Below are positions 58,096-60,365 of a stretch of 64,000 nt of DNA, piece by piece (position 1 is the stretch's first letter; the number at the start of each line of letters is the position of its first letter). The position numbers and the translations under genes were made by a program. The DNA lies in the NCBI RefSeq assembly GCF_003790525.1, contig NZ_CP033633.1; one strand, given 5' to 3'. A model generated the notes under the pieces. The model saw only the letters and a program-made list of their open reading frames with translations, did not search any database and was not told the origin of the DNA. This DNA is from Escherichia coli (lineage in GTDB: Bacteria > Pseudomonadota > Gammaproteobacteria > Enterobacterales > Enterobacteriaceae).

Positions 58096-60365
58096 GTGTG
58101 CCCGGAGTTCAGGGCGGGCATGGATGCTTAAATGAACCGCGAGTCTGTCTGGAATATTGAACCGGTAACTCACGATGAGAAACCCAACAATCCCACCGGG
58201 TGTGACGGTGGAGAACCTGAGCGGCAGTGACCTGCGGCATGCCCGCAGGGTGATGTAACCCGCTGACAACGGGGATTGAGGCGAGATCACTAAGCCGAGA
58301 TGATCCTCAAGGTTAAGTACTGAAAGGCTGAAGAACATGAACCCGTTAATCCGCCTCTGTGGGTTGAAAACGTCACCACGGCCTACGTGATCTGACAGGC
58401 CGTGCAGGAGGAACTGGCAGTAATACGTAAGCACTGCCGGTCGAAGGTGTTTTGACATGTATGCGAAACACCGGGGCAGCAGCGTCTATCACGCTTGCGT
58501 TGCTGACTTCTGCCAACTTGCGGCAAGCAAGGATAAAGAGTGCGACGGGCAGCCTCCTCAGTATGCCTGAGTCCAGGCAGGTAAACCGGGGAAGGTCAGC
58601 GACGGATGTTAAGGGGGCATGGCTCCGATGACGCGCTGGCTGGCGGAGCTTCCGTAGTAGTCCGCGATGGGGAAAGCCCATTACATGGCGAAGGGAAGCA
58701 GTTTGAATGTGTTTGCGACGTGAATTAACTGACCTAACGAGGTGAAGACCTTTGATAATCAGCGAAATGCAACGCAAGCTTGCCACATGGGCAGTCACCG
58801 ATCCGTCCCTACGGATTCAACGGCTGCTGCGTCTGATAACACAACCAGAATGGCTGGCTGAAGCGGCGCGGATCACGCTTTCATCAAAGGGGGCCCATAC
58901 CCCCGGCGTTGATGGCGTGAACAAAACAATGCTACAGGCCAGACTGGCTGTTGAGCTGCAAATCCTCAGGGATGAATTACTCTCAGGCCACTACCAGCCC
59001 TTGCCCGCCAGACGGGTTTACATCCCTAAAAGCAACGGCAAACTGCGACCACTGGGTATCCCCGCGTTGCGGGATCGTATTGTTCAGCGGGCCATGCTGA
59101 TGGCGATGGAGCCGATATGGGAGAGTGATTTTCATACGCTCTCATATGGCTTCCGGCCTGAGCGCAGTGTCCACCACGCTATCCGCACGGTGAAATTACA
59201 GCTCACAGACTGTGGTGAAACCCGGGGACGCTGGGTGATTGAAGGCGACCTGTCCAGTTACTTCGACACCGTACATCATCGACTGCTGATGAAGGCTGTA
59301 CGCCGCAGGATCAGTGACGCACGTTTCATGACTCTGCTGTGGAAAACCATCAAGGCGGGACATATCGATGTCGGTCTCTTTCGGGCGGCCAGTGAAGGTG
59401 TGCCACAGGGCGGTGTTATATCGCCGCTATTATCGAACATCATGCTGAATGAGTTCGATCAATACCTGCATGAGCGCTACCTGAGCGGGAAAGCCAGAAA
59501 AGATCGGTGGTACTGGAATAACAGTATCCAACGGGGCCGAAGTACGGCGGTCAGAGAAAACTGGCAGTGGAAACCCGCGGTGGCGTACTGCCGCTATGCC
59601 GATGATTTTGTCCTCATCGTCAAAGGCACCAAAGCACAGGCGGAAGCCATCAGGGAGGAGTGTCGGGGTGTGCTCGAAGGCAGTCTGAAACTCAGGCTGA
59701 ACATGGATAAGACTAAAATCACCCATGTTAATGACGGCTTTATCTTTCTGGGGCACAGGATCATTCGCAAACGCAGTCGTTATGGCGAGATGCGAGTGGT
59801 CTCAACGATCCCGCAGGAGAAAGCCAGAAACTTCGCCGCATCGCTGACAGCACTGTTATCAGGCAACTACAGTGAAAGCAAAGTCGATATGGCTGAACAA
59901 CTCAACCGAAAACTGAAAGGCTGGGCCATGTTCTATCAGTTCGTTGATTTTAAGGCCAAAGTCTTCAGTTATATCGACCGTGTCGTGTTCTGGAAGCTGG
60001 CTCACTGGCTGGCCCGCAAATACCGTACAGGTATCGCTTCCCTGATGAGGTGGTGGTGTAAATCACCGAAACCGGGTCAGAGCAAAACGTGGGTTTTATT
60101 TGGTAAAACCAATCACGGCAAGCTCAGCGGCGAAATACTGTACCGGTTGGTGGGGCAAGGCAAGAAGCTGTTCCGCTGGCGGCTACCCGAAGGTAATCCC
60201 TATCTGAGGACGGAGACCAGAAACACGTATACATCGCGCTTTACAGAAGTGGCAATGGCGTTCGCCAGCATTTAAATGGAGAGCCGGATGCGCTGAAAGG
60301 TGCACGTCCGGTTCGGGGAGGAGAGGCAGGGAAATAGTCCGACTACGCCCTGCCTCTTACTCTAC
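58096..60365 (+). mobile_element. bacterial group II intron (~2.27 kb) with intron-encoded protein
   Basis: 5' GTGTG, 3' ...CTAC; precise interruption of IS629 orfB by comparison with copies 1 and 2. Confidence 0.8.
58752..60275 (+). CDS. group II intron reverse transcriptase/maturase (IEP)
   Basis: 507 aa; RT motifs incl. ...LRPLGIP... and YADD (CRYADDFVLIVKG); C-terminal maturase region. Confidence 0.85.
   Translation: MIISEMQRKLATWAVTDPSLRIQRLLRLITQPEWLAEAARITLSSKGAHTPGVDGVNKTMLQARLAVELQILRDELLSGHYQPLPARRVYIPKSNGKLRPLGIPALRDRIVQRAMLMAMEPIWESDFHTLSYGFRPERSVHHAIRTVKLQLTDCGETRGRWVIEGDLSSYFDTVHHRLLMKAVRRRISDARFMTLLWKTIKAGHIDVGLFRAASEGVPQGGVISPLLSNIMLNEFDQYLHERYLSGKARKDRWYWNNSIQRGRSTAVRENWQWKPAVAYCRYADDFVLIVKGTKAQAEAIREECRGVLEGSLKLRLNMDKTKITHVNDGFIFLGHRIIRKRSRYGEMRVVSTIPQEKARNFAASLTALLSGNYSESKVDMAEQLNRKLKGWAMFYQFVDFKAKVFSYIDRVVFWKLAHWLARKYRTGIASLMRWWCKSPKPGQSKTWVLFGKTNHGKLSGEILYRLVGQGKKLFRWRLPEGNPYLRTETRNTYTSRFTEVAMAFASI

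What the first reader, a model, noticed from the sequence alone, without database searches (positions are those of the whole stretch)
58096..60365. Group II intron inserted in the transposase gene of a degenerate IS629 copy
Seen: comparison of IS629 copy 3 with copies 1 and 2 shows a precise 2270-bp insertion in orfB (exon junction ...ACTTACG | TCAGCACATGG...). The insert begins GTGTG, ends ...CTAC and encodes a 507-aa reverse transcriptase/maturase with YADD. The host IS also carries a ~20-bp deletion and a frameshift, so it is probably immobile and the intron is the only potentially active retroelement here. Known: bacterial group II introns often home into mobile DNA.
Basis: partly seen in the sequence, partly recalled or inferred. 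Interest (0 to 1): 0.6.

Follow-up and report, generated by a model that had tools for sequence, protein, structure and literature searches.

The report
Known E. coli group II intron E.c.I4
The 2270-base insert is a full-length copy of E.c.I4, a well-catalogued E. coli group II intron that homes into IS3-family transposase genes, here sitting in a dead IS629-like element on a conjugative plasmid, so the finding is correct but ordinary.

Summary
Window 58096-60365 (+) is a precise 2270-nt insertion in orfB of an IS629/IS1203-like IS3-family element (57322-60880). That element also carries a 20-bp deletion and a 1-bp frameshift.

The insert has the hallmarks of a group II intron:
- a 5' GUGUG and a 3' AC end;
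- an Rfam domain V/VI match ending exactly at 60365, with a bulged A at 60359;
- a 6-bp EBS1/IBS1 pairing;
- an intact RT + maturase ORF with no endonuclease domain.

It is 100% identical to NC_009790 12712-14981, which Leclercq and Cordaux (2012) list as copy E.c.I4-27. E.c.I4 belongs to ORF class A and is known to target IS3-family transposases. Matches occur in 2668 of 5426 complete E. coli genomes, where they are routinely annotated as ltrA.

- A sister plasmid carries the same dead IS without the intron, with identical exons, so the intron arrived after the IS decayed.
- Another sister plasmid carries a different E.c.I4 allele at the same site.
- Two perfect homing sites in the intact IS629 copies of this window are empty.

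In 105 contigs the intron sits after the Tyr codon of a W-x-x-D-x-T-Y motif in all but one. Verdict: already known, low interest.

The parts
57322..60880 (+). Host element: a diverged IS629/IS1203-like IS3-family insertion sequence. It is 1289 bp without the intron. Both terminal inverted repeats are intact (TGAACCGCCCCGG...CCGGGGCGGTTCA). There is no 3-bp target duplication (CTT on the left, TAT on the right).
   Evidence: 91-94% identity to the copies at 6454-7763(-) and 26902-28211(+); the best intact relatives are about 94% identical and annotated as IS3 family / IS1203 / IS629 transposase.
57376..57702 (+). orfA of the host IS (108 aa), apparently intact.
   Evidence: ORF list; alignment.
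57657..57743 (+). ALIL programmed-frameshift pseudoknot of the IS, crippled by a 20-bp deletion between 57729 and 57730.
   Evidence: 63.8 bits here against 116.2 bits in the two intact copies. One search shows the alignment gap.
57985..57988 (+). A-run with one A missing (4 A instead of 5). This shifts the orfB reading frame upstream of the intron.
   Evidence: alignment. In one search the ORF 57724-58038 stops prematurely.
57724..58095 (+). 5' exon: the disrupted 5' part of orfB. It ends ...W V A D F T Y + G, so the intron lies after position 1 of the next codon.
58090..58095 (+). IBS1 (CTTACG), the last six bases of the 5' exon.
   Evidence: perfect 6-bp complement of the intron sequence CGTAAG.
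58096..60365 (+). Group II intron E.c.I4 (ORF class A), full length at 2270 nt, with 5' GUGUG and 3' ...CUAC.
   Evidence: It is 100% identical to NC_009790.1 12712-14981, listed as E.c.I4-27 in the supplement of PMC3522654.
58413..58441 (+). EBS1 hairpin of domain I: a 9-bp stem and an 11-nt loop AAUACGUAAGC. EBS1 is CGUAAG at 58426-58431.
   Evidence: free energy -12.7 kcal/mol, z -2.5; the same region is unpaired in the 671-nt fold.
58752..60275 (+). Intron-encoded protein in domain IV, with RT and maturase (X) domains, YADD, and no D/En domain. The start is either TTG 58752 (507 aa, with GAGG 9 nt upstream) or ATG 58767 (502 aa, as PGAP annotates WP_001189123.1).
60281..60314 (+). Domain V: a 34-nt hairpin with an AGC triad, a 2-nt bulge and a GAAA loop.
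60317..60363 (+). Domain VI. The bulged branch-point A is at 60359, 7 nt from the 3' splice site.
   Evidence: domains V and VI together fold at -48.2 kcal/mol, z -5.8.
60366..60838 (+). 3' exon: the rest of orfB, continuing (G)TC S T W Q G..., with stop codon at 60836-60838.
27680..27707 (+). Unoccupied, perfect E.c.I4 homing site in intact IS629 copy 2.
   Evidence: 28/28 match to the ligated exons. This is the most common occupied target type.
6958..6985 (-). Unoccupied, perfect E.c.I4 homing site in intact IS629 copy 1.

Best explanation
The insert is a full-length and probably functional copy of the E. coli group II intron E.c.I4. This intron belongs to ORF class A, and its protein has RT and maturase domains but no DNA endonuclease.

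The likely mechanism is as follows. The intron is transcribed as part of the IS transcript. It folds into the group II ribozyme with help from its encoded protein and splices by branching at A60359. The resulting lariat-protein particle reverse-splices into DNA that carries the homing site. That site is the stretch of IS3-family transposase genes encoding W-x-x-D-x-T-Y, recognised partly through EBS1 (CGUAAG) pairing with IBS1. Because the protein lacks an endonuclease, cDNA synthesis is presumably primed by a nascent strand at a replication fork.

Here the intron entered an IS629-like copy that was already dead, on a conjugative plasmid resembling IncK2/Z plasmids from poultry. Splicing cannot restore a working transposase, so this IS serves only as a harmless landing site.

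Shown: the identity, the boundaries, domains V and VI, EBS1/IBS1, the protein domains, the empty site, and the target motif. Inferred: splicing activity, the priming mode, and the direction of the event (gain rather than loss).
For: Identity: the insert is 100% identical over 2270 nt to NC_009790.1 12712-14981, which PMC3522654 lists as E.c.I4-27. Class A and the absence of an En domain come from PMC3552965.

Ribozyme: Rfam Intron_gpII scores 64.9 bits and ends exactly at the 3' boundary. Domain VI has a bulged A 7 nt from the end. EBS1 sits in an 11-nt hairpin loop and pairs 6/6 with IBS1.

Protein: Pfam RVT_1 (2e-34) and GIIM (1e-10) match, with no HNH domain. TIGR04416 scores 341 bits against a cut-off of 300. 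The best solved relative is LtrA, 5g2x, at 2e-52.

Insertion after IS decay: pE32-3 has the same dead IS, with the 20-bp deletion and the frameshift, and no intron. Its exons are identical to those of the filled plasmid pEF5-18-41_2 between window coordinates 54453 and 61658.

Target motif: 105 contigs gave 21 distinct upstream 25-mers, and 20 of them encode W-x-x-D-x-T-Y. The intron always follows the Tyr codon plus 1 nt, and the first base of the 3' exon is always T. This agrees with the published IS3-family targeting.

Abundance: matches occur in 2668 of 5426 complete E. coli genomes, annotated as ltrA.
Against: No experiment was possible, so splicing and mobility of this copy are inferred from sequence integrity.

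Domains I-III were only folded thermodynamically (z -2.1). No Rfam D1-D4 model matches them, and the EBS2/IBS2 pairing could not be assigned uniquely.

Two perfect homing sites on the same 64-kb stretch are empty. That argues against high current activity in this host.

The invariant target positions are exactly the non-degenerate codon positions. Recognition by the intron therefore cannot be separated from conservation of the protein motif.
Confidence: 0.93

Rival explanations
1. The intron did not reach this dead IS by retrohoming. Instead it arrived by homologous recombination or gene conversion with another IS629::E.c.I4 copy in the same cell.
For: The plasmid backbones are recombination mosaics (52127-54453). 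Contigs with an IS629-type 5' exon and an IS911-type 3' exon exist, and PMC3522654 also reports chimeric host ISs. The window and pEF5-18-41_2 carry different intron alleles at the same site: 6 differences in 2270 nt, against 3 in 4934 nt of flank, Fisher p = 0.03.
Against: No donor-type polymorphisms flank the intron. The exons of the filled plasmid (L003) and the empty plasmid (L002) are identical, and the window's two exon SNPs are private. The host IS is only 91-94% identical to typical IS629 donors, so a conversion tract should have left marks.
Confidence: 0.12
2. The copy is an inert relic. It is intact in sequence but not currently spliced or mobile, for example because the dead IS is poorly transcribed.
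For: Two perfect homing sites in intact IS629 copies on the same replicon are unoccupied. No sigma-70-like promoter was found upstream within the IS. PMC3522654 reports unsaturated homing sites in most genomes.
Against: The ORF is uninterrupted, and the whole intron is identical to a copy from a strain (E24377A) in which the intron multiplied to 7 copies. The filled/empty polymorphism among near-identical plasmids shows recent movement at this very site.
Confidence: 0.3
3. The empty-site plasmids reflect precise loss of the intron rather than gain.
For: The polarity cannot be read from two alleles alone.
Against: Precise DNA-level deletion of a group II intron is rare; this rests on general knowledge. 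Empty alleles were the majority among related plasmids (5 records at 81% coverage in two pieces, against 2 filled). The filled alleles carry two different intron haplotypes, which fits repeated gain better.
Confidence: 0.05
4. The insert belongs to a different class of retroelement, such as a retron, a DRT defence reverse transcriptase, or a group II-like RT without a ribozyme.
For: There are weak sub-threshold NCBIfam hits to retron St85 RT, Drt3a and Drt2 (48-54 bits).
Against: Those scores lie far below the curated cut-offs of 200-390 bits. The GIIM domain, the domain V/VI match, the exact intron boundaries and the EBS1/IBS1 pairing are all present.
Confidence: 0.01

Closest known systems
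E.c.I4 (E. coli) / S.f.I1 (Shigella flexneri), bacterial group II introns of ORF class A
   Same: It is the same element. The insert is 100% identical to the copy catalogued as E.c.I4-27. It has the same length (2270-2271 nt), the same En-less RT/maturase, and the same homing site in IS629, IS911 and related IS3-family transposases.
   Different: Only the location is particular: a dead IS629-like copy on a conjugative plasmid resembling poultry IncK2/Z plasmids. This locus is filled in only 2 complete E. coli records.
Ll.LtrB / LtrA of Lactococcus lactis (group IIA, the model mobile intron)
   Same: Both have an RT + X protein encoded in domain IV. LtrA is the best solved-structure match (5g2x, 2e-52). 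Both show the domain V/VI architecture and EBS/IBS-guided retrohoming into a mobile-element gene; this last point rests on established knowledge.
   Different: LtrA has a C-terminal D/En domain, and this protein has none. The sequence similarity is confined mainly to the RT fingers and palm (query residues 18-235).
RmInt1 of Sinorhizobium meliloti (class D, no endonuclease, homes into ISRm2011-2)
   Same: Both are endonuclease-less bacterial introns whose natural homing site is an insertion-sequence transposase gene. The presumed replication-fork-primed retrohoming rests on general knowledge and was not tested here.
   Different: RmInt1 belongs to a different ORF class (D rather than A). It targets a different IS family and has a different ribozyme subtype.

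Membership tests
Mobile group II intron | Conserved boundaries: 5' GUGYG and 3' AY | tested here: met
   The intron begins GUGUG at 58096-58100 and ends ...CUAC at 60365.
Mobile group II intron | Domain V: a 34-nt hairpin with an AGC triad, a 2-nt bulge and a GNRA loop | tested here: met
   Rfam RF00029 scores 64.9 bits (gathering score 40), E 1.7e-10, at 60279-60365. Domain V is 60281-60314 with a GAAA loop.
Mobile group II intron | Domain VI with a bulged branch-point A 7-8 nt from the 3' splice site | tested here: met
   The minimum-energy and centroid folds both leave A60359 bulged, 7 nt from the end; z -5.8.
Mobile group II intron | EBS1 in a domain I loop, complementary to the last bases of the 5' exon | tested here: met
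   CGUAAG at 58426-58431, in an 11-nt loop on a 9-bp stem, pairs 6/6 with CTTACG at 58090-58095.
Mobile group II intron | EBS2/IBS2 pairing, and delta-delta' or EBS3/IBS3 | tested here: inconclusive
   There are two candidate EBS2 sequences (AGAUCA at 58284, UGAAA at 58365), and the target survey favours neither. The first base of the 3' exon is always T.
Mobile group II intron | Canonical architecture of domains I-III | tested here: inconclusive
   Only a thermodynamic fold of 58096-58766 was made (z -2.1). No Rfam D1-D4 model matched. All relatives fetched are over 98% identical, so covariation could not be assessed.
Mobile group II intron | An ORF in domain IV encoding RT plus a maturase (X) domain | tested here: met
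   Pfam RVT_1 2.2e-34 and GIIM 1.3e-10. NCBIfam TIGR04416 scores 341 bits against a cut-off of 300. YADD is present.
Mobile group II intron | A precise insertion with a matching uninterrupted (empty) site | tested here: met
   Copies 1 and 2 in the window and plasmid pE32-3 carry the joined exons exactly.
Mobile group II intron | Self-splicing and retrohoming activity | not testable with these tools
   This needs RT-PCR and a mobility assay.
E.c.I4 (ORF class A) | Near-identity to the catalogued intron. The database convention is that introns over 95% identical share a name (PMC3552965). | tested here: met
   0 mismatches in 2270 nt against NC_009790.1 12712-14981, which is E.c.I4-27. 1 mismatch against NC_009801 4848623-4850892, which is E.c.I4-2b.
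E.c.I4 (ORF class A) | No D/En (HNH) domain in the intron-encoded protein | tested here: met
   Only RVT_1 and GIIM are found, and residues 422-502 have no Pfam match. Class A is described as En-less in PMC3552965.
E.c.I4 (ORF class A) | A homing site at a fixed position in IS3-family transposase genes | tested here: met
   20 of 21 distinct sites encode W-x-x-D-x-T-Y, with the intron after Tyr plus 1 nt. This is published for IS629, IS911, ISEc16 and ISEc31.
Group IIC (class C) introns | Insertion just downstream of a terminator-like hairpin | tested here: not met
   One terminator-like match lies at 58068-58083. However, no hairpin is conserved in position or strength across the 21 distinct targets.
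Retron / DRT defence reverse transcriptases | A score above the family cut-off, and no group II ribozyme | tested here: not met
   Scores are 48-54 bits against cut-offs of 200-390. Ribozyme domains V and VI are present.

The most novel reading that the evidence does not exclude
The same dead-IS homing site on one plasmid lineage was filled at least twice, independently, by different E.c.I4 alleles, while intact IS629 copies nearby stay empty. If so, the intron is currently active in poultry-associated E. coli plasmids. Its site choice would then be governed by something other than target sequence, such as replication direction, transcription, or selection against intron-bearing functional ISs. 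A related point is that the G in EBS1 opposite exon position -2 pairs with either Tyr codon (TAC or TAT). That may be an adaptation that lets one intron follow a protein motif across diverged IS3-family members.
Probability: 0.2. Interest if true: 0.3.

Novelty: already known. Interest (0 to 1): 0.1.

Why it matters
It matters little for discovery. E.c.I4 and its habit of homing into IS3-family transposases are published, and genome pipelines already annotate it.

The locus has modest value as a natural example. Near-identical plasmids carry the site empty, filled with one allele, or filled with another. This shows recent intron traffic into a defunct IS, and shows that a dead transposase gene still works as a safe harbour for the intron.

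For annotation, the region should be read as one interrupted IS pseudogene plus an intron. It should not be read as two transposase fragments and a stand-alone reverse transcriptase.

Tried and rejected
1. Rfam at a permissive E-value over 58000-60450 was run to find domain I-IV models. Nothing matched beyond domains V and VI.
2. A fold of the 671-nt 5' part gave only a weak z-score of -2.1, and I do not treat it as a structure model.
3. Covariation analysis was not possible. All 36 full-length copies fetched differ from the window by 32 mismatches or fewer, most by 6 or fewer. I ran no further search on finding diverged class A relatives, because identity to a curated intron already settles membership.
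4. A terminator-like hairpin just upstream of the insertion site (58068-58083) suggested IIC-like targeting. I rejected this because the hairpin is not conserved among target sites.
5. I looked for co-conversion of exon sequence as a mark of recombination-mediated acquisition and found none.
6. EBS2 could not be assigned.
7. Dai and Zimmerly 2002 (PMC101233) is not held in the library.
8. The ORF at the ectopic site in L031 has no Pfam match.

Full report
**Observation.** The region was read directly. IS copy 3 was compared with the rest of the window by BLAST and MAFFT. Homology to the two other IS629 copies (6454-7763 on the minus strand, 26902-28211 on the plus strand) runs from 57322 to 58095 and resumes at 60366, continuing to 60880. 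Removing 58096-60365 gives a collinear alignment through ...GATTTTACTTACG|TCAGCACATGG.

The insert is 2270 nt, starts GTGTG and ends CTAC. The host IS lacks 20 bp between 57729 and 57730. That deletion lies inside the ALIL frameshift pseudoknot, which scores 63.8 bits here against 116.2 bits in the intact copies. The IS has also lost one A from the run at 57985-57988, which shifts the orfB frame.

Copy 3 is 91-94% identical to copies 1 and 2. Its closest intact relatives among complete E. coli genomes are about 94% identical and are annotated as IS3-family, IS1203 or IS629 transposases. It is therefore a diverged member of the IS629/IS1203 group.

**What the insert is.** Rfam's group II intron model (domains V and VI) matches 60279-60365 at 64.9 bits, well above the gathering score of 40, and ends on the last base of the insert. 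Folding 60276-60365 gives the 34-nt domain V hairpin with a GAAA loop (60281-60314). It also gives a domain VI helix (60317-60363) with a single bulged A at 60359, 7 nt from the 3' end; z is -5.8.

In the 5' part, CGUAAG at 58426-58431 is the exact complement of the last six exon bases, CTTACG. It sits in an 11-nt loop closed by a 9-bp stem, which is the usual setting for EBS1.

The ORF runs from 58752 (TTG) or 58767 (ATG) to 60275. It carries Pfam RVT_1 and the group II maturase domain GIIM and nothing else, so there is no HNH/En domain. It passes NCBIfam's equivalog model for group II intron RT/maturase, at 341 bits against a cut-off of 300. Retron and DRT models score far below their cut-offs. 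Its best solved relatives are LtrA, GsI-IIC RT and other group II intron proteins.

The TTG start has a GAGG 9 nt upstream, whereas the ATG that PGAP uses has no obvious Shine-Dalgarno sequence. The true start therefore remains open.

**Identity with a catalogued intron.** The 2270 nt are 100% identical to NC_009790.1 12712-14981 on plasmid pETEC_74 of E. coli E24377A. They differ at one base from NC_009801.1 4848623-4850892. The supplementary tables of Leclercq and Cordaux 2012 (PMC3522654) list exactly these intervals as E.c.I4-27 and E.c.I4-2b.

[quoted passage not shown] Toro and Martinez-Abarca 2013 (PMC3552965) place E.c.I4 and S.f.I1 in ORF class A, one of the classes without an endonuclease domain.

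Matches to the intron occur in 2668 of 5426 complete E. coli genomes. In 1873 of them one place covers at least 80% of the query. The ORF is routinely annotated as 'ltrA: group II intron reverse transcriptase/maturase'.

**Context and history of this copy.** The window is part of a conjugative plasmid. It carries eitABC, an autotransporter, umuC, psiA, parA/parB, MobP relaxases, mazEF and IS100. Its closest relatives are IncK2/Z plasmids from chickens.

One of these, pEF5-18-41_2, has the same locus filled. Several others, such as pE32-3, have the same dead IS in the same place without the intron. That IS carries the 20-bp deletion and the frameshift.

Between window coordinates 54453 and 61658 the filled and empty sister plasmids have identical exon and flank sequence. 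The window's only differences there (57234, 60417, 60715) are private to it. The intron therefore arrived after the IS had decayed, and it left no co-converted flank.

The intron allele in the window equals the E24377A allele. It differs at six positions from the allele at the same site in pEF5-18-41_2. Each of the two lies three steps from the commonest allele seen in metagenomes. This suggests either two independent insertions or conversion between intron copies. The excess of intron over flank differences is only marginally significant (p = 0.03).

Among complete E. coli genomes this exact filled locus occurs in just two records.

**How it finds its site.** An exact-match scan of metagenome contigs with the first 32 intron bases returned 103 stretches. 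Together with the annotated loci, 105 contigs had at least 25 nt of 5' exon, falling into 21 distinct sequences.

Twenty of the 21 encode W-x-x-D-x-T-Y, the conserved motif around the first catalytic Asp of IS3-family transposases. The intron always follows the Tyr codon plus one base, and the first 3' exon base is always T. Fifty-nine contigs carry the IS629-type IBS1 (CTTACG) that pairs perfectly with EBS1. IS911-type and other sites pair at 4-5 of 6 positions, with mismatches at -5 and -1.

The invariant target positions (-20, -13, -12, -9, -6, -4, -3) are the non-degenerate codon positions. Position -2 is C or T, and both pair with the G of EBS1.

Two EBS2 candidates exist and the survey cannot choose between them. 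A terminator-like hairpin upstream of the site in this window is not conserved among targets, so IIC-like structural targeting is rejected.

**Activity.** The ribozyme and ORF are identical to copies from a strain in which the intron reached 7 copies, so the copy is probably competent. Against high activity, the two intact IS629 copies in this window carry perfect, empty homing sites at 6958-6985(-) and 27680-27707(+). This fits the published finding that most genomes are not saturated.

Splicing would rejoin orfB in frame at the junction. However, the upstream 20-bp deletion and the 1-bp frameshift mean that no functional transposase can result. The IS ends are intact, so mobilisation in trans is conceivable; this is inference. 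No other reverse transcriptase was found among 30 of the 33 ORFs of at least 200 aa in the window.

**Verdict.** The element is the known intron E.c.I4 in one of its known target classes, it is already annotated in thousands of genomes, and it is of low interest. The only additions are local: the empty and filled sister plasmids, the two alleles at one site, and the unoccupied sites nearby.

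Noticed in passing
window 6958-6985 (-) and 27680-27707 (+): The two intact IS629 copies carry perfect, unoccupied E.c.I4 homing sites, while the only occupied site is in the dead IS copy.
   Followed up: partly
L003 (NZ_CP063494.1) 6596-8865 compared with window 58096-60365: The same site on the same plasmid backbone holds a different E.c.I4 allele. There are 6 differences, at intron positions 327, 700, 800, 1061, 1085 and 1118. Each allele lies 3 steps from the commonest metagenome allele, which hints at independent insertions or conversion.
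   Followed up: partly
L031 11046-11070 (metagenome contig ERZ1032621.821): This is an ectopic E.c.I4 insertion outside any IS3 transposase. The upstream ORF ends ...LKSYDFPY| and has no Pfam match. The target (TGACTTCCCATACA|) resembles the usual GAY-N-T-N-AC-N-TAY-N pattern.
   Followed up: partly
metagenome loci L005-L107: Several contigs combine an IS629-type 5' exon with an IS911-type 3' exon, or the reverse, around the intron. The cause is either recombination between intron copies in different ISs, as reported for 'chimeric IS629/IS911' hosts in PMC3522654, or assembly chimeras.
   Followed up: no
window 57319-57321 and 60881-60883; 57122-57319 (-): IS copy 3 has no 3-bp target-site duplication (CTT against TAT). 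It abuts a fragment of an IS256/IS1414-family transposase gene. The 24 bases at 57300-57323 recur at 5486-5509 and 10726-10749, so the locus has been rearranged.
   Followed up: no
window 63591-63748 (-): There is a STAXI RNA match (70.4 bits) next to IS100, near the end of the window.
   Followed up: no
window 24079-25665 (-) and 53701-56403 (+): There are two MobP-type relaxase genes on the same stretch. The first matches only the C-terminal part of the profile, which may indicate a cointegrate or a remnant of a second plasmid.
   Followed up: no
window 58739-58769: The start of the intron ORF is ambiguous. TTG 58752 has GAGG 9 nt upstream, whereas the ATG 58767 used by PGAP has no obvious ribosome-binding site. 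In the fold the GAGG lies in a small hairpin, reminiscent of a domain IVa protein-binding site.
   Followed up: no
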